A stretch of DNA of 32,000 nucleotides from Pseudoalteromonas tetraodonis (GCF_002310835.1 NZ_CP011041.1:180001-212000); one strand, 5' to 3'; shown: positions 24,401-30,438, numbered from the stretch's first letter. Notes: generated by a model not told the origin, from the sequence alone. Made by a program: numbers and translations.

Positions 24401-26998
24401 GTGCTACAAGAATATCGTAAACACGTAGAAGAACGTGCCGCGTTAGGTATCGTACCAGCGCCATTAGATGCTCAGCAGACGGCTGATCTTATTGAGCTAA
24501 TTAAAACGCCACCGGCAGGTGAAGAAGAGTTCATCCTAGAACTACTGATCAACCGCGTACCACCAGGTGTTGATGATGCAGCCTACATTAAAGCAGGATT
24601 TTTAGCGGCTGTTGCTAAAGGTGAAGCTGTTTCTCCGTTGATTTCTAAAGAAAAAGCAGCTGAGTTACTAGGTACTATGCTCGGTGGCTACAATATTGCG
24701 CCAATGGTTGAACTACTTGATGACGAAGCGTTAGCGCCAATTGTAGTAAAAGGCCTTTCGAACACATTATTAATGTTTGATGCGTTCTACGATGTAGAAG
24801 AAAAAGCAAAAGCAGGTAATGCATACGCCAAGCAAATTATAGAGTCTTGGGCTGCTGCAGAATGGTTTATCAATAAGCCAGCCGTTGCTGAAAAAATCTC
24901 TGTTACGGTATTTAAAGTCACTGGCGAGACAAACACAGATGATTTATCACCAGCACCAGATGCATGGTCACGTCCTGATATTCCACTTCATGCATTAGCT
25001 ATGCTTAAAAATGAGCGTGATGGTATTAACCCTGACAAAGACGGTGAAGTAGGTCCAATCACTCAGCTTGAAGAATTAAAAACTAAAGGCTTACCACTTG
25101 CTTACGTAGGTGACGTTGTTGGTACAGGCTCTTCGCGTAAGTCTGCAACAAACTCTGTGCTTTGGTTTATGGGGGATGATATCCCATTCGTACCAAACAA
25201 GCGCGTGGGTGGTGTATGTTTAGGTAACAAGATTGCGCCTATTTTTTTCAATACAATGGAAGACTCGGGTGCGTTACCAATCGAATTAAATGTTGATGAA
25301 TTCAACATGGGTGACCAAATCGACATCTACCCTTATGAAGGTGTTGTGAAACGTCATGGTACTGATGATGTGATCTCTACATTTGAACTTAAATCAGAGG
25401 TAATTTTAGACGAAGTTCGTGCTGGTGGTCGTATTCCATTGATCATTGGTCGTGGTCTTACAGACAAAGCACGTACATCATTAGGTTTAGGCGCAACTGA
25501 CGTATTTAAAGTACCAGCAATGACTGAAGTATCAGACAAAGGCTTTACGCTTGCGCAAAAAATGGTTGGTAAAGCATGTAACGTTGCCGGTATTCGCCCA
25601 GGCCAATACTGTGAACCTAAAATGACCACGGTTGGCTCGCAAGATACAACAGGTCCTATGACGCGTGATGAGCTTAAAGACTTAGCCTGTTTAGGTTTCT
25701 CTGCAGATTTAACAATGCAGTCTTTTTGTCATACATCCGCTTACCCTAAGCCAATCGATGTAAACACGCACCATACGCTTCCTGATTTTATTATGAATCG
25801 TGGCGGTGTATCGCTTCGCCCTGGTGACGGTGTAATTCACTCATGGTTAAACCGTATGTTATTACCAGATACCGTAGGTACGGGTGGTGATTCACATACA
25901 CGTTTCCCATTAGGTATTTCATTCCCAGCAGGTTCGGGGGCGGTAGCGTTCGCAGCTGCAACGGGTGTAATGCCACTAGATATGCCTGAATCAATTTTGG
26001 TTCGTTTTAAAGGTGAAATGCAACCGGGTATCACTTTACGTGACCTTGTACATGCTATCCCTTATTTTGGTATCAAAGAAGGCCTATTAACGGTTGAGAA
26101 GAAAGGTAAAATCAACGAATTCTCTGGTCGCATACTAGAAATTGAAGGGGTTGAGCACTTAACGGTTGAGCAAGCGTTTGAGCTATCCGATGCATCTGCA
26201 GAGCGTTCAGCTGCTGGCTGTACTGTTAAGCTTTCTAAAGAGTCTATCAGCGAATACCTTGAGTCTAATATTGTTATGCTTAAGTGGATGATTTCTGAAG
26301 GTTACGGCGATGTACGTACGATTGAACGTCGTGTTACTGCAATGCAAGACTGGTTAGCAAACCCAGAGCTAATGGAAGCTGATAAAGACGCAGAGTACAA
26401 ACACGTACTTGAAATCGACCTTGCTGAGATTAAAGAGCCAGTACTGTGTGCGCCAAATGATCCTGATGATGCACGCCTACTTTCTGATGTGACAGGCGAG
26501 AAAATCGATGAAGTATTTATCGGTTCTTGTATGACTAATATTGGTCACTTCCGTGCTGCAGGTAAATTACTCGATGGCTTTAAAGGGCGTATTCCAACAC
26601 AGCTTTGGGTTGCTCCACCAACGAAAATGGATAAAGACCAACTTACAGACGAAGGTTACTACGGTATTTTTGGTCGTGTTGGTGCACGTATTGAAACGCC
26701 AGGGTGTTCACTGTGTATGGGTAACCAAGCACGTGTTGCGGACAAAGCAACGGTTGTGTCTACTTCTACACGTAACTTCCCTAACCGTTTAGGTACAGGG
26801 GCAAACGTATTCTTAGCATCAGCAGAGCTGGCAGCAGTAGCAGCAATTTTAGGCAAATTACCTACACCTACTGAGTACCAAGAATACGCAGCGAAGATCA
26901 ATGCAACGGCAGCAGATACCTACCGTTACTTGAACTTTCACCGTATGCCTCAGTACACTAAAAAGGCAGACAACGTAATTATTCAGCAAGCTGTATAA
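24401..26998 (+). CDS. acnB: Aconitate hydratase B / 2-methylisocitrate dehydratase
   Basis: The 865-aa product is near-collinear with E. coli AcnB from [14 protein letters not shown] to the C-terminus. It uses a GTG start preceded by AAGAGGG. Confidence 0.97.
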
Positions 26999-27199: not shown

Positions 27200-27832
27200 A
27201 TGACCGCATTAAACAACCAGAATTTACTGCAACTTCGTTTTATTAACCAAGCCAATATTGATTTGGTTAAGCCTTCTTTTGATAACTTACCTGCAAATCC
27301 TTATGCAGATGGTGCGTTTCGTAAACGCCGTTATTCAGTGGTTAAATTACAAAATGGTGAGCTTAATCTTCAAGCGACCAAAGCGTTTGTGCAAGACGAT
27401 TCAATTAATACCTTTCAAGGTAATGTTGAGCGTACTTACGAAAACTTAGAGCAAAGCTTGCTTGAGTCTGAGGGTATGAAAAGCATTGTTAGCGAATTTG
27501 CAGCGATCACCGGCATTGACGCAGAGCGTGATATTGAAATTCACCAATTTAGAATGCTTGCCATTGATAGCGATACGCCAGCAGCTCCAGAAGGTGTGCA
27601 TCAAGATGGGTTTGACCATGTGTGTGTATGTGGTGTTTCTCATGAAAATTTAGAAGGTGGTGAGCTATTGGTTTATGAAAACCAACAAGCTGAACCGTGT
27701 TTTAAAATGGAAATAAAAGACGGCATGTTTGCACTAATTAATGACCGTCAGGTATGGCATAACGCCACGCCAATGAACAAAATTGATGCTAACAAACCAG
27801 GTTACCTGGATTGCTTTGTACTAACTGCTTAA
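27200..27832 (+). CDS. 2OG-Fe dioxygenase family protein (PF10014-type, free-amino-acid hydroxylase-like)
   Basis: The facial-triad context is GVHQDGFDH ... VWHNATP. The size (210 aa) and motif layout fit the family that includes L-isoleucine dioxygenase IDO. Confidence 0.7.
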   Translation: MTALNNQNLLQLRFINQANIDLVKPSFDNLPANPYADGAFRKRRYSVVKLQNGELNLQATKAFVQDDSINTFQGNVERTYENLEQSLLESEGMKSIVSEFAAITGIDAERDIEIHQFRMLAIDSDTPAAPEGVHQDGFDHVCVCGVSHENLEGGELLVYENQQAEPCFKMEIKDGMFALINDRQVWHNATPMNKIDANKPGYLDCFVLTA

Positions 27833-27842
27833 GAGAAATAAA

Positions 27843-29075
27843 ATGAATTTAATGCAATTGCGCGCGCAATTTCCTGCTTTAATGCAAACTGTTGATGGCA
27901 AGTCACCGGTGTTTTTAGATGGGCCAGGTGGCTCACAAGTACCTCAGTCGGTACTCAATGCCATGACCGCTTATTTAGGGCATTACAATTCAAACTTGGG
28001 CGGTGCGTTTTTCTCAAGTGACAAAACGGTTGAGCTGATGGCGAATGCGCGTCAAGCGGCGGCTGATTTGTTAAATGCGCCCAGTGCACAAAATATTGTG
28101 TTTGGCCCTAATATGACTAGCCTAACATTTAGCTTTAGCCGAGCAATTTCACGCAATTGGCAAGCAGGTGATGAAATTATAGTGACCAATGCTGATCATT
28201 TTTCAAATGTATCGTCTTGGCAGCAAGCCGCTGAAGATAAAGGCGCAGTGGTTAACACAGCGCTAATTAACGAAGCCGATTGTAGTTTAGATATGGCGCA
28301 TTTTGAAAGCTTATTAAACGCTAACACTAAATTGGTTGCGGTTACGTATGCATCAAATACCACTGGCTCTATTAACGATATTAAACGTATTATAGAGCTT
28401 GCTCATAATGTGGGTGCGTTGGTGTATGTTGATGCGGTGCATTATGCGCCACATGAACTGATTGATGTACAAGCGTTAGATTGCGACTTTTTAGCTTGTT
28501 CTGCATATAAGTTTTTTGGCCCGCACTTAGGCATGGTTTATGGTAAAACTGAGCACTTAGAAGGGTTTACACCTTATAAAGTAGAGCCAGCAAAAGATGT
28601 TGCACCAGGTCGCTGGGAAACCGGCACACAAAGTTTTGAGGCACTTGCAGGCTTTATTGCGGCGGTTGATTACATAGCGGCGATTAGCGAACTTGATGAC
28701 AGTCACTCACGCCGAGAAAAATTACGTGTTGCGTTTGCTAAAACAAAACAACATGAAATGGCATTGAGTGAATACTTTTTAACGCGTCTAGTTAACTACC
28801 CAAAAATTAAGTTGTTTGGTATAGACGATTTAGAGCGTTTGAGTGAGCGTACCCCTACGTTCGCACTGACCTTTGAAGGGTTAGAGCCTCGCCAAGTGTC
28901 TGAATTTTTGGGTAAACAACATGTATGTGTATGGGATGGTAATTTTTACGCCCAAGGTTTATGCAAACAACTGGGTGTGCTTGATAAGGGCGGCGTAGTA
29001 CGCATTGGTTGTATGCACTACAACACCATTGAAGAGATGGACACTTTGTTTGACTTGTTTGATGAGCTGATTTGA
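27843..29075 (+). CDS. Class-V PLP-dependent aminotransferase / cysteine-desulfurase-like protein
   Basis: It has fold-type I class V motifs (ASNTTG, VYVDAVHYAP) and a PLP-lysine context SAYKFFGPH. It starts 10 nt after the dioxygenase stop and has its own AAGAG SD. Confidence 0.85.
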   Translation: MNLMQLRAQFPALMQTVDGKSPVFLDGPGGSQVPQSVLNAMTAYLGHYNSNLGGAFFSSDKTVELMANARQAAADLLNAPSAQNIVFGPNMTSLTFSFSRAISRNWQAGDEIIVTNADHFSNVSSWQQAAEDKGAVVNTALINEADCSLDMAHFESLLNANTKLVAVTYASNTTGSINDIKRIIELAHNVGALVYVDAVHYAPHELIDVQALDCDFLACSAYKFFGPHLGMVYGKTEHLEGFTPYKVEPAKDVAPGRWETGTQSFEALAGFIAAVDYIAAISELDDSHSRREKLRVAFAKTKQHEMALSEYFLTRLVNYPKIKLFGIDDLERLSERTPTFALTFEGLEPRQVSEFLGKQHVCVWDGNFYAQGLCKQLGVLDKGGVVRIGCMHYNTIEEMDTLFDLFDELI

Positions 29076-29077
29076 AG

Positions 29078-29147
29078 CTGTCAGCTATAAGCCGTCAGCT
29101 TTCAGTTTAATGCAAATACTTGACAGTAGTCAGCAGTTAGTTAATTT
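29078..29147. repeat. Ten degenerate heptads (consensus CTGTCAG), in phase with the perfect array
   Basis: Parsed in 7s from 29078, the units read CTGTCAG CTATAAG CCGTCAG CTTTCAG TTTAATG CAAATAC TTGACAG TAGTCAG CAGTTAG TTAATTT. Seven of 10 units match the consensus at 5 or more of 7 positions. The frame runs straight into the array at 29148. Confidence 0.75.
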
Positions 29148-29702
<555 letters not shown>

Positions 29703-30407
29703 TTAGCTTTGTGGCGTTCCATAAATTTGCTCTGCTCGATTAAACAAAACCCATGAGGTTAAAATATACTTATCGTTTGATACTGGCTTATTGCCTCTAT
29801 GTGTATGCGTAAAGTAGCCTGGGGCAATTACCATGCTGCCTTTTTTAGGGGCTATTTTACGATTTTGATAATAAAACTCGGTTTCTCCGCCTTCTTCAAC
29901 ATCATTTAAATAAAACATAAATAACAACACCCGATGCAGTGCTTCATTATGCTGTAGCTGCGGATACACCTCACTGTGCCAATACGGATAACCGCCTTTA
30001 TTTACTTCGTATTTTTGCGCTTGAATATTACCGAGTCTAAAAATTTGCTGTACCAATAAGGGGAGTTGTGGTTTACCTACCTCGTCATAGTTGGCGTGAG
30101 TTAAATCAACCGGTTGTCCTGTTTTTGGGTGATATACCTTTAAACCAAATGCCCCAATCATCATAAAAATATGTTCTTCAATGTAGTTGAAAACATACTG
30201 TGCAGTGGTTTGTTGAATATGTTTTAATTGTTCTGCGTATTCAGGATGATTGTTTAAGTATAAGTCGTGGCTATCTTTTTTATTAAGGTCAACACCGCCC
30301 GATGTCATCCCTTGTTTAATATGCGGGCTTTGAGAAAAGGTAGTGATAAAGTTATCGCAAAATTCATTACTGAGCGCGTTGTCATACACGCGGATAAAGT
30401 CCGTCAT
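29703..30407 (-). CDS. 2OG-Fe(II) oxygenase superfamily protein (prolyl-hydroxylase-like fold)
   Basis: It has an HxE/D...H pattern (YWHSE ... THTHRG), and GGETEF and ILTSW are typical of small bacterial/phage 2OG-Fe(II) oxygenases. Its TAA stop is separated from the heptamer array by 2 nt. Confidence 0.72.
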   Translation of the reverse strand: MTDFIRVYDNALSNEFCDNFITTFSQSPHIKQGMTSGGVDLNKKDSHDLYLNNHPEYAEQLKHIQQTTAQYVFNYIEEHIFMMIGAFGLKVYHPKTGQPVDLTHANYDEVGKPQLPLLVQQIFRLGNIQAQKYEVNKGGYPYWHSEVYPQLQHNEALHRVLLFMFYLNDVEEGGETEFYYQNRKIAPKKGSMVIAPGYFTHTHRGNKPVSNDKYILTSWVLFNRAEQIYGTPQS

Positions 30408-30438
30408 GAGTTACCTGTTTAATTATTATTGGATTATT

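What the first reader, a model, noticed from the sequence alone, without database searches (positions are those of the whole stretch)
29078..29147. The perfect array is preceded by an in-phase, decayed heptad array of a related, near-palindromic unit (CTGTCAG)
Parsing from 29078 in steps of 7 gives CTGTCAG, CTATAAG, CCGTCAG, CTTTCAG, TTTAATG, CAAATAC, TTGACAG, TAGTCAG, CAGTTAG, TTAATTT. The phase lands exactly on the first CTGACCG at 29148.

The old unit differs from the amplified unit at positions 4 and 6 (CTG-T-C-A-G vs CTG-A-C-C-G). This looks like two evolutionary layers: an old array that has mutated away, and a variant unit that expanded recently to 79 copies. That implies the locus has been a heptad-repeat site for a long time, so the repeat is maintained or regenerated rather than being a one-off accident.

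Because CTGTCAG is almost its own reverse complement, its GTCAGC cores are also complementary to the GCTGAC cores of the array. Transcripts crossing both could therefore pair.
Basis: seen in the sequence. Interest (0 to 1): 0.55.

Follow-up and report, generated by a model that had tools for sequence, protein, structure and literature searches.

The report
Paired inverted seven-base repeat arrays
The imperfect seven-base repeats beside the 79-copy array are real, but they are the opposite-facing partner arm of a paired repeat cassette between two converging Pseudoalteromonas genes, one arm stable and the other changing length from strain to strain, not an eroded older layer of the same array.

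Summary

In 80 Pseudoalteromonas species the junction carries two separate heptad arrays. One abuts the aminotransferase stop, the other the 2OG-oxygenase stop, and they face each other.
- The flank matches the reverse complement of the array unit better (23/30) than the unit itself (17/30). In relatives with a non-palindromic unit the figures are 52/73 vs 30/73.
- The "in phase" relation is not conserved in other species (shifts 6, 4, 6, 6, 2).
- The flank is not eroding. It is 72/72 identical in species whose four-fold sites are about 50% identical, and gene-tree conflict indicates lateral exchange.
- The right array is a hypervariable VNTR: 5-14 copies in strains with identical flanking proteins, 79 here.

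Flank and array fold into a long hairpin (−53 kcal/mol, z −5.5); the array alone is unstructured.

The closest published precedent is the convergent heptamer repeat pairs of Xanthomonas. In passing I found the same TCAGC→←GCTGA architecture in 79 viral and at least 120 metagenome stretches. Function is untested.

The parts
27843..29075 (+). Class-V aminotransferase gene (context). Its stop codon TGA is at 29073-29075, and the left heptad arm begins at the very next base.
   Evidence: ORF list. Pfam Aminotran_5, E 2e-69.
29076..29105 (+). Left (outer) heptad arm: AGCTGTC AGCTATA AGCCGTC AGCTTTC AG. It is an imperfect array oriented opposite to the big array, with TCAGC/TAAGC cores.
   Evidence: TRF period 7. 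Lag-7 autocorrelation z 4.7. 23/30 match to the reverse-complement unit against 17/30 direct. 77% complementary to any 30 nt of the array. Whole-unit indels of 7 or 14 nt in L001, L016 and L023.
29106..29119 (+). Non-periodic spacer TTTAATGCAAATAC. TGCAAAT (29111-29117) is the direct repeat that flanks a 34-nt AT-rich hairpin. The hairpin is present in L001, L016 and L020 and absent here.
   Evidence: No lag-7 signal and no match to the unit. Indel seen in the alignments.
29120..29140 (+). Second (inner) cluster TTGACAG TAGTCAG CAGTTAG. It is predicted to pair with the first two to three array units.
   Evidence: 17-nt arm 29124-29140 is 76% complementary to the array start. Inner hairpin in the MFE folds. 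The periodicity is weak on its own, p≈0.02.
29141..29147 (+). Predicted hairpin loop TTAATTT between the inner cluster and the array.
   Evidence: Folds.
29148..29702 (+). Right arm: perfect (CTGACCG)x79 plus CT. It is a hypervariable VNTR that runs up to the stop codon of the minus-strand gene.
   Evidence: TRF 79.3 copies, 100% matches. 5-14 copies in conspecific strains, with all spacer lengths equal to 4 mod 7. Contigs of L013, L016, L087 and L091 break inside it, and L024 has an N gap. On its own it is less structured than shuffles.
29076..29198 (.). Predicted composite stem-loop. The flank pairs with about the first 7 array units. The helices are 5-6 bp GUCAGC:GCUGAC segments separated by small internal loops.
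   Evidence: MFE -53.4 kcal/mol (+ RNA) and -54.4 kcal/mol (- RNA), z -5.5 and -5.2. The same fold appears in L084 and L023 and in the 7-sequence consensus.
29703..30407 (-). 2OG-Fe(II) oxygenase gene (context). Its stop codon, TAA on the minus strand, is at 29703-29705 and directly abuts the array.
   Evidence: ORF list. Pfam 2OG-FeII_Oxy_3, E 3e-11.

Best explanation
The segment 29076-29147 is the stable, imperfect, oppositely oriented partner arm (plus spacer and loop) of a two-armed heptad-repeat cassette. The cassette fills the gap between the stop codons of two convergent genes.

Each arm reads 5'-AGC-NN-TC-3' units running away from the stop codon of its own gene, so the arms face each other. 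The arm next to the oxygenase gene, (CTGACCG)n on the + strand, is a hypervariable tandem repeat. It gains and loses whole units, presumably by replication slippage, and has recently ballooned to 79 copies in this strain.

The two arms are extensions of the stem of the hairpin that normally sits at this convergent junction. Together they can form a long imperfect stem-loop in transcripts from either gene, or in single-stranded DNA.

I infer, but have not shown, that this stem-loop does the job of the bidirectional terminator or 3'-end-protecting hairpin that array-less relatives carry at the same spot. On that view only the first few array units matter, and extra copies are near-neutral.

The cassette is also exchanged between species by recombination.

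Shown: the anatomy, the orientation, the hypervariability, the conservation, the pairing potential and the positional equivalence to terminators. Inferred: slippage as the mechanism, and the terminator or stabiliser function.

The confidence of 0.5 is for the whole statement. I put the anatomy alone at about 0.85 and the terminator or stabiliser function alone at about 0.35.
For: Orientation.
- The flank matches the reverse-complement unit 23/30 against 17/30 direct.
- In L017, L019, L024, L025 and L027 the figures are 52/73, 22/31, 22/31, 18/27 and 22/31 inverted, against 30, 12, 13, 11 and 12 direct.

Two arrays. Relatives show a left array after the aminotransferase stop (L017 has about 10 AGCTATA units) and a right array before the oxygenase stop. 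A unique spacer or hairpin lies between them.

Left and right core variants tend to go together: TCAGC with GCTGA in the window group, TAAGC with GCTTA in the L017 group.

VNTR behaviour. Copies are 5, 8, 9, 9, 12, 14 and 79 in strains with identical flanking proteins, with an invariant flank.

Pairing.
- Folds have z -5.5 and -5.2.
- The array alone is unstructured.

Origin in a stem.
- In L019 the single unit GCTTACC and its inverse GGTAAGC form the base of a perfect 17-bp hairpin.
- In L030, TAAGCAGCCC pairs with GGGCTGCTTA.

Positional equivalence. Array-less species carry a canonical bidirectional terminator here, AAAGCCATAAGT...ACTTATGGCTTTTTT. Every spacer variant I folded forms a strong hairpin, z -2.1 to -6.7.

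Conservation.
- The flank is 72/72 identical to L013 and L020.
- Four-fold sites are 44-49% identical.
- The neighbouring spacer is 58-60% identical to L016 and L020.

Exchange.
- The gene-A tree puts the window with array-less species.
- The last 60 nt of gene A are 57/60 identical to L020, against 80% for the whole gene.

Precedent. Convergent heptamer pairs lie within 50 bp of stop codons in Xanthomonas (PMC4692102).
Against: - No expression or 3'-end data are available.
- The simple terminator scan finds nothing in 29076-29702, and no U-run follows the predicted hairpin on either strand.
- Several species have only 27-35 nt between the two stops and no room for a hairpin, so a structure here is not indispensable.
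- The alignment gives almost no covariation. Sequences are nearly identical, and the few one-sided changes are merely wobble-compatible.
- L018 combines an L017-type flank with a CTGACCG array, so the left/right covariation is not strict.
- The high flank identity could come from recent lateral spread rather than purifying selection.
- In the look-alike elements of viral contigs, the variable dinucleotides that face each other are no more complementary than chance. This is odd for a structure selected only for pairing.
- The figure of 79 copies rests on one assembly.
Confidence: 0.5

Rival explanations
1. The flank is the eroded remnant of an older array in the same orientation and register. 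One variant unit of it re-expanded into the present 79 copies.
For: - Direct match in register is 17/30, against 13 or fewer in other registers, p≈0.001 against shuffles.
- The second cluster directly abuts the array.
- TTGACAG is a direct-orientation look-alike of the unit.
- Decayed direct edges do occur in other CTGACCG arrays, e.g. L093 and L100.
Against: - The inverted match is better here (23/30) and far better in relatives with a non-palindromic unit (52/73 against 30/73).
- The register differs in every other species.
- Relatives have a unique spacer or hairpin between the two arrays, and the left array is anchored to the other gene's stop codon.
- The flank shows no erosion between species whose synonymous sites are near saturation.
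Confidence: 0.08
2. There is no function at all. Both arms are selectively neutral slippage products parked in a harmless spot between two gene ends. The flank looks conserved only because the cassette has recently spread between species by homologous recombination, with the perfect array serving as a crossover substrate.
For: - Copy number is extremely polymorphic.
- The cassette is absent from many congeners, some with only 27-35 nt between the stops.
- The gene-A tree conflicts with cassette distribution.
- The 3' end of gene A is a mosaic.
- Heptanucleotide repeats are the commonest long simple repeats in bacteria, which has been ascribed to polymerase slippage (Mrazek 2007, as cited in PMC4679880 and PMC4692102).
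Against: - All 15 species pairs within the type-I group would need recent exchange of a tract bounded almost exactly by the two stop codons.
- Window against L013 shows no rise in identity in the last 90 nt of gene A, yet the flank is 72/72 identical.
- The unit sequence itself is unchanged in 7 species.
- The look-alike family elsewhere is strongly arrangement- and core-specific, which neutral slippage does not predict.
Confidence: 0.27
3. The heptads are binding sites for a sequence-specific protein on DNA or RNA. Units in head-to-head arrays would recruit a cooperative multimer, as with the ribbon-helix-helix omega repressor on heptad iterons, or HutP on NAG-N4 repeats (both recalled from memory). 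Pairing between the arms would be incidental.
For: - The 5-nt core is conserved, with a free 2-nt spacer drawn from a restricted vocabulary (TA, TT, GG, CG) on both arms of 95 viral sites. The same types occur in the window.
- Facing dinucleotides are not complementary.
- Arrangement is strongly specific: convergent 79 stretches, divergent 2.
- The core is specific: 1 hit for a permuted core.
Against: - No candidate protein was identified.
- The heptamers are not over-represented elsewhere in 1.6 Mb of Pseudoalteromonas DNA.
- In 1.6 Mb of Pseudoalteromonas DNA around this locus, GCTKA-type arrays were found at only two sites: this junction and the (TCGCTTA)n site after the tRNA-Met genes.
- Copy number from 5 to 79 would titrate a regulator very unevenly.
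Confidence: 0.12
4. The array is an unstructured, C-over-G RNA tract that loads Rho. It would terminate aminotransferase transcripts before they run antisense into the oxygenase gene.
For: - The + strand RNA (CUGACCG)n is 3/7 C and 2/7 G.
- It is less structured than shuffles.
- No intrinsic terminator is detected.
Against: - This is purely compositional.
- The flank pairs with the first units, which would hinder loading.
- It does not explain the conserved inverted arm or the left array.
Confidence: 0.04
5. The minus strand of the array encodes a repeat protein (SGQRSAV)n, ORF 29141-29722, perhaps an ice-binding-like beta-roll.
For: - The minus strand is open in all three frames.
- The 193-aa ORF hits Pfam LbR_Ice_bind at E 1.8e-31.
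Against: - Its ATG lies out of frame inside the end of the oxygenase gene.
- In conspecific strains the same region is only 35-98 nt of array.
- Each 7-nt copy change shifts the exit frame.
- The CTTACCG variant of relatives has TAA in every minus-strand frame.
- The Pfam hit is what a V-x-G heptad peptide repeat would give by periodicity alone.
Confidence: 0.01

Closest known systems
Convergent pairs of intergenic heptameric repeats in Xanthomonas, (GGGAATC)n (Rehm et al. 2015, PMC4692102)
   Same: - The unit is 7 nt, with conserved and free positions.
- Arrays have 2-26 units.
- They are intergenic, mostly within 50 bp of a stop codon or overlapping it.
- 70-75 cases per genome have two arrays on opposite strands in convergent orientation, able to form stem-loops.
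- Length and sequence vary extensively between close relatives.
   Different: - The unit here is not G-rich and cannot form a G-quadruplex.
- In the Pseudoalteromonas DNA I hold, heptad arrays occur at only two sites, not hundreds.
- One arm is stable and near-identical across species, while the other is hypervariable and very long.
Long simple sequence repeats / VNTRs of prokaryotes, with the heptanucleotide excess (Mrazek, Guo & Shah 2007, as summarised in PMC4679880 and PMC4692102)
   Same: - A perfect head-to-tail array of a 7-nt unit.
- Strain-to-strain copy-number polymorphism in whole units.
- Non-coding location.
   Different: That class says nothing about a conserved inverted partner arm, pairing, or attachment to stop codons.
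TAACTGA heptamer direct repeats of marine Beggiatoaceae, cyanobacteria and Bacteroidetes (MacGregor 2015, PMC4679880), and the cyanobacterial tandem heptanucleotides of Calothrix (cited there and in PMC4692102)
   Same: - Intergenic heptamer arrays that hug coding-sequence ends.
- Stop codons in all frames on one strand and an open reverse strand.
- Assembly breaks in long arrays.
- Patchy phylogenetic distribution, suggesting lateral spread.
   Different: - Those are mostly direct repeats just upstream of start codons. Only one indirect repeat is reported in the Maribeggiatoa genome.
- The unit is different.
REP / BIME / REPIN extragenic palindromes of Gammaproteobacteria (from general knowledge)
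   Same: - An imperfect inverted doublet forming a hairpin just after stop codons, often between convergent genes.
- A proposed role as mRNA 3' stabiliser or terminator.
- Patchy, lineage-specific spread.
   Different: - REPs have no internal 7-nt periodicity and do not expand as tandem arrays.
- They occur in hundreds of copies and are tied to RAYT transposases. None of this was seen here.
Simple-sequence contingency loci (phase variation) of Haemophilus and Neisseria (PMC2651432; general knowledge)
   Same: A hypermutable tandem repeat whose copy number changes by slippage.
   Different: Here the tract lies after both stop codons. Copy number therefore cannot shift a reading frame or promoter spacing.

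Membership tests
Prokaryotic VNTR / long simple sequence repeat | Head-to-tail perfect or near-perfect copies of a short (5-11 nt) unit, longer than chance allows | tested here: met
   TRF: 79.3 copies, 100% matches, score 1110.
Prokaryotic VNTR / long simple sequence repeat | Copy number polymorphic in whole units among close relatives | tested here: met
   5, 8, 9, 9, 12, 14 and 79 copies in strains with identical flanking proteins. All spacer lengths equal 4 mod 7.
Convergent heptamer repeat pair (Xanthomonas type, PMC4692102) | Two heptamer arrays close together on opposite strands, in convergent orientation | tested here: met
   The left arm matches the reverse-complement unit 23/30. Relatives give 52/73 inverted against 30/73 direct. 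The inverted-repeat finder gives 77% over 30 nt.
Convergent heptamer repeat pair (Xanthomonas type, PMC4692102) | [quoted passage not shown] | tested here: met
   The left arm starts at the base after TGA (29076). The right arm ends at 29702, the base next to the minus-strand TAA at 29703-29705.
Convergent heptamer repeat pair (Xanthomonas type, PMC4692102) | G-rich unit capable of G-quadruplex formation; hundreds of dispersed copies per genome | tested here: not met
   The unit CTGACCG/CGGTCAG has no G-runs. Only this locus and one other site carry GCTKA-type arrays in 1.6 Mb of Pseudoalteromonas DNA. A whole-genome census was not possible.
TCAGC>-<GCTGA convergent heptad elements of viral and metagenome contigs (seen here; I found no description of them) | At least 3 TCAGC cores spaced 7 nt, a gap of 3-33 nt, then at least 3 GCTGA cores spaced 7 nt | tested here: inconclusive
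   - The window has TCAGC, TAAGC, TCAGC, TCAGT, then 42 nt, then GCTGA x79.
- It fails the strict pattern by one core mismatch and by gap length.
- It passes a relaxed 2+2 pattern with core TMAGC/GCTKA and a gap up to 80 nt.
- The variable-dinucleotide types TA, TT, CG and GG are the four commonest of the family.
- It abuts stop codons as the family does, where the median distance is 5-7 nt.
- Common descent cannot be tested.
Rho-independent (intrinsic) terminator | G+C-rich stem-loop followed by a run of U | tested here: not met
   No terminator-like site in 29076-29702 on either strand. The predicted hairpin is followed by more CUGACCG on the + strand, or by CUUCAAAUCAG on the - strand.
Phase-variable contingency locus | Repeat tract inside an ORF or between promoter elements, so that unit changes switch expression | tested here: not met
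   The tract lies between the stop codons of two convergent genes. No promoter-like site is found in the spacer.
Dispersed uptake- or Chi-like signal | The motif is strongly over-represented genome-wide outside the array | tested here: not met
   Observed/expected is 0.4-1.4 for all rotations of the units in 0.34 Mb and 1.6 Mb of Pseudoalteromonas DNA.
Known RNA family (Rfam 15) | Match to a curated covariance model at gathering score | tested here: not met
   The only hit is a sub-threshold one to P26: 17.7 bits against a gathering score of 36, E 0.69.

The most novel reading that the evidence does not exclude
The Pseudoalteromonas cassette may be a chromosomal, AT-rich-genome member of a widespread family of gene-boundary elements that I could not find described.

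The family consists of head-to-head arrays of a heptad with a fixed 5-nt core (TCAGC facing GCTGA) and a free dinucleotide.
- They sit a few bases after stop codons.
- They occur up to about 14 times per phage genome.
- They are present in many soil and sediment metagenome contigs across GC 0.36-0.75.

The core is strongly specific and so is the arrangement, yet the facing dinucleotides are not complementary. This suggests recognition by a dedicated factor, or a specific generating or mobilising mechanism, rather than plain hairpin stability or random slippage.
Probability: 0.2. Interest if true: 0.7.

Novelty: new variant of a known kind. Interest (0 to 1): 0.45.

Why it matters
For this finding, the work replaces a neat but wrong evolutionary story (old layer, new layer, same register) with a testable anatomy. 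The anatomy is two facing heptad arms at a convergent gene junction: one fixed and one hypervariable.

- It gives a ready-made VNTR marker for typing SM9913-like Pseudoalteromonas strains.
- It warns that short-read assemblies break or collapse at this site.
- It is a natural series (0, 1, 5-14 and 79 units; with and without the central hairpin; terminator replaced by cassette). That series could test whether heptamer repeat pairs act as terminators, RNA stabilisers or insulators. The question was left open for the Xanthomonas, cyanobacterial and Beggiatoa heptamers.
- If the link to the TCAGC/GCTGA elements in phage and metagenome contigs holds, it points to a broad class of gene-boundary elements whose function and origin are unknown.

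Tried and rejected
- In-phase continuity of flank and array. Rejected, because the register differs in all other species.
- Coding potential of the minus strand, with the Pfam LbR_Ice_bind hit. Rejected.
- Uptake-sequence or Chi-like dispersed motif. The units contain AGCGG/AAGCGGT, which I recalled as resembling known signals. Rejected, because there is no over-representation.
- Known RNA family. Nothing found.
- Sigma-70 promoter or intrinsic terminator in the spacer. None by consensus scan. A TTGACA at 29120 has only a poor -10 partner.
- Self-structure of the array as a driver of expansion. Rejected, because the array alone is less structured than shuffles.
- A 13-codon ORF starting at ATG 29110. 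It is disrupted by the 34-nt insertion in L020, L016 and L001, so it is not conserved.
- Nucleotide search of a heptad-rich phage contig against annotated phages. No match.
- Literal searches of the literature for the repeat strings. No paper.
- Mrazek 2007 (PMC1895974) could not be opened. It is cited only through two papers that summarise it.
- Covariation test of the hairpin. Uninformative, because the sequences are nearly identical.

Full report
**Setting.** The window is Pseudoalteromonas DNA. The aminotransferase and oxygenase proteins that flank the repeat are identical to those of Pseudoalteromonas sp. SM9913 (CP001796.1) and several other assemblies.

The local map is as follows:
- acnB, 24401-26998 (+)
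- a 2OG-Fe dioxygenase, 27200-27832 (+)
- a class-V aminotransferase, 27843-29075 (+)
- a 627-nt spacer, 29076-29702
- a 2OG-Fe(II) oxygenase, 29703-30407 (-)

The spacer therefore lies between the stop codons of two convergent genes.

**Checking the observation.** The perfect array is (CTGACCG)x79 at 29148-29700, plus CT.

The periodicity of the flank is real.
- TRF calls 29076-29105 as period 7.
- Lag-7 autocorrelation of 29076-29147 is 0.508, against 0.258±0.057 in dinucleotide shuffles (z 4.4, 0/5000). Taking the maximum over lags 2-15 gives p≈0.002.
- Nearly all the signal comes from the four units at 29076-29105 (z 4.7).
- The cluster TTGACAG TAGTCAG CAGTTAG is weak alone (p≈0.02).
- 29106-29119 is not periodic.

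The flank is in register with the array in this sequence.

**What the relatives show.** I fetched the junction from 80 Pseudoalteromonas species. In 35 of them the same two genes are adjacent, and their spacers fall into clear types.

Many species have only 27-87 nt between the stops. These spacers either have no room for structure or carry a textbook bidirectional terminator (AAAGCCATAAGT...ACTTATGGCTTTTTT).

The others carry two separate heptad arrays.
- A left array starts right after the aminotransferase stop. Its units are AGCTATA, AGCTGTA, AGCCGTC and the like, and L017 has about 10 of them.
- A right array runs up to the oxygenase stop. Its unit is CTGACCG or CTTACCG, with 1 to more than 24 copies.
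- A unique spacer, often containing a hairpin, lies between them.

Contigs of L013 and L016 end inside the right array, and L024 has an N gap there.

The flank, however, is a second array belonging to the other gene end. It is not the frayed edge of the big array.

**Orientation and phase.** CTGTCAG is nearly its own reverse complement, so the window alone is ambiguous. The flank matches the unit 17/30 in direct orientation and 23/30 as reverse complement.

Relatives with the non-palindromic unit CTTACCG settle the question. Their left arrays match the inverted unit 52/73 (L017), 22/31, 22/31, 22/31 and 18/27. The direct matches are 30/73 and 11-13.

Each arm therefore reads AGC-NN-T(C/A) away from its own gene's stop, and the arms face each other. 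The core variant tends to agree between arms: TCAGC with GCTGA, and TAAGC with GCTTA. L018 is mixed.

Relative to their arrays, the left heptads of L001, L013, L016, L020 and L023 are shifted by 6, 4, 6, 6 and 2. The causes are a 34-nt hairpin indel flanked by TGCAAAT repeats and small changes next to the array.

**The right arm is a hypervariable VNTR and the flank is not decaying.** Assemblies whose aminotransferase and oxygenase proteins are identical to the window's have 5, 8, 9, 9, 12 (SM9913) and 14 units. Two more contigs break inside the array. All their spacer lengths equal 4 mod 7. The 72-nt flank is invariant apart from one SNP.

Between species the flank is astonishingly constant.
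- It is 72/72 identical to L013.
- It is 72/72 identical to L020, apart from the 34-nt insertion.
- It is about 94% identical to L023, and the aligned blocks of L016 are 95-100% identical.
- Four-fold degenerate sites of the adjacent gene are only 44-49% identical to those species.
- The neighbouring acnB spacer is 58-60% identical to L016 and L020.
- Its length differences are whole units, 7 or 14 nt.

This contradicts "an old array that has mutated away".

Two explanations remain, and both probably contribute. One is purifying selection. The other is lateral exchange of the cassette.
- The gene-A tree places the window and L001 among array-less species, far from L013, L016, L020 and L023.
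- The last 60 nt of gene A in the window are 57/60 identical to L020, against 80% for the whole gene.
- The window and its closest relative L001 differ precisely in this segment and in the cassette.

**Pairing.** The flank is 77% complementary to any 30 nt of the array.

RNA of 29060-29200 folds into one long nested hairpin on either strand, at -53.4 and -54.4 kcal/mol (z -5.5 and -5.2).
- The inner stem is 29124-29140 paired with the first units, around the loop UUAAUUU.
- The outer stem is 29076-29106 paired with later array units; the whole stem-loop ends at about 29198.
- The same fold is predicted for a 5-unit conspecific strain, for L023, and for a 7-sequence alignment.

The array alone is less structured than shuffles.

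In species with a minimal cassette the heptad is visibly the base of a hairpin stem. L019 has a perfect 17-bp stem running from GGTAAGCC to GGCTTACC. L030 pairs TAAGCAGCCC with GGGCTGCTTA. Every spacer variant I folded, with or without arrays, forms a strong stem-loop (z -2.1 to -6.7).

This is the basis for my preferred reading. The arms are amplified outer parts of the stem of the hairpin that serves this convergent junction. The right arm's surplus copies are slippage products of little consequence.

The function is inferred only. No canonical terminator is detected, covariation is uninformative, and some species manage without any structure here.

**Things excluded.**
- The minus-strand ORF through the array, (SGQRSAV)n, gives a Pfam LbR_Ice_bind hit at E 1.8e-31. 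It is an artefact. It shrinks to a few codons in sister strains, changes exit frame with each unit, and is closed by TAA in the CTTACCG variant.
- The units are not over-represented elsewhere, so they are not uptake- or Chi-like signals.
- Rfam has nothing.

**Comparison with what is known.** Heptanucleotides are the commonest long simple repeats in bacteria. This is Mrazek 2007, as summarised in PMC4679880 and PMC4692102.

The closest precedent is Rehm et al. 2015 (PMC4692102). Xanthomonas (GGGAATC)n arrays have these properties:
- They are intergenic.
- They lie within 50 bp of stop codons.
- They are length-variable.
- In 70-75 cases per genome they are paired in convergent orientation, able to form stem-loops.

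The Pseudoalteromonas cassette has that architecture, but with a non-G-rich unit, one fixed arm and one hypervariable arm.

MacGregor 2015 (PMC4679880) describes TAACTGA heptamers hugging gene boundaries in Beggiatoaceae, cyanobacteria and Bacteroidetes.

The cassette is not a contingency locus, because it lies after both stops.

**Seen in passing.** I wrote the window's architecture as a pattern: TCAGCNN x3, a gap of 3-33 nt, then GCTGANN x3.
- Scanning IMG/VR gave 79 stretches, holding 95 distinct sites.
- The arms-swapped pattern gave 2, a permuted core gave 1 and the TAAGC core gave 0.

Properties of the family:
- Sites have a median of 4 units per arm and start a median of 5-7 nt after a stop codon.
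- They sit in the gaps between co-directional genes of bona fide tailed phages.
- They use a restricted set of variable dinucleotides (TA, TT, GG, CG), the same types as in the window.
- The dinucleotides that face each other are no more complementary than chance.

I found no paper containing these repeat strings. Whether the Pseudoalteromonas cassette is a true member of this family is open.

**Verdict.** The segment is the conserved, inverted partner arm of a convergent heptad-repeat cassette whose other arm is a strain-variable VNTR. It is a new variant of a known kind of bacterial repeat. Interest is moderate. It would rise if the link to the widespread TCAGC/GCTGA elements and a defined function were established.

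Noticed in passing
L092-L179 (IMG/VR) and L183-L302 (metagenome contigs); e.g. L092 7179-7245, L138 with at least 12 sites, L188 1019-1133: A widespread element: head-to-head heptad arrays (NNTCAGC)n, a 2-33 nt gap, then (GCTGANN)n.
- 2 hits for the swapped arrangement, 1 for a permuted core and 0 for a TAAGC core.
- Median of 4 units per arm.
- Sites start about 5-7 nt after stop codons.
- Up to about 14 per phage genome.
- Facing dinucleotides are not complementary.
- I found no description in the searchable literature.
   Followed up: partly
L038 9083-9159, L039 328-382, L040 9103-9157, L041 9068-9158, L045 1-55, L079 9068-9157: A second heptad VNTR in the P. phenolica-like clade: (TCGCTTA)x8-13, that is GCTTA plus TC, the same GCTTA core as the CTTACCG arrays. 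In L041 it lies downstream of three tandem tRNA-Met genes and upstream of the 2OG-Fe dioxygenase gene. No inverted partner was seen. The L045 contig starts inside it.
   Followed up: partly
L077 1290-1383: An unrelated AT-rich heptad array, (GTTAAAA)x13, in an intergenic region between a terminator hairpin and the next gene. In the 1.6 Mb sampled, period 7 accounts for 18 of 27 tandem arrays with 5 or more copies. Most of those 18 are at the two loci described here.
   Followed up: no
window 29141-29722 (-): A 193-aa ORF reading (SGQRSAV)n through the array. It scores E 1.8e-31 against Pfam LbR_Ice_bind (grass antifreeze beta-roll). I judge this a periodicity artefact, not a gene.
   Followed up: yes
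window 29111-29117; L001, L016 and L020 just after the equivalent TGCAAAT: A 34-nt AT-rich hairpin, CTGCACTTTAATTATTGTTTATTAAAGTGCAAAT, bounded by direct TGCAAAT repeats. It is present in three species and absent in the window's species, L013 and L023. It could be a deletion by slippage or an insertion, and the direction is unresolved. It is what breaks the heptad register in the other species.
   Followed up: partly
window 29016-29075, compared with L001, L016, L020 and L078: The last 40-60 nt of the aminotransferase gene are a mosaic.
- The window matches distant L020 at 57/60.
- L001 matches L016 at 60/60 and shares most of that stretch with L078.
- The C-terminus is ...DELI* in cassette-bearing species and ...ELLG* in array-less ones.
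This suggests that the cassette, together with the gene's 3' end, is exchanged between species.
   Followed up: partly
window 30343-30422: The list's longest thioesterase ORF (GTG at 30343) overlaps the start of the divergent oxygenase gene by 65 nt. Public gene calls at the orthologous site use shorter starts (132 or 143 aa), so this is probably just a start-codon choice.
   Followed up: no
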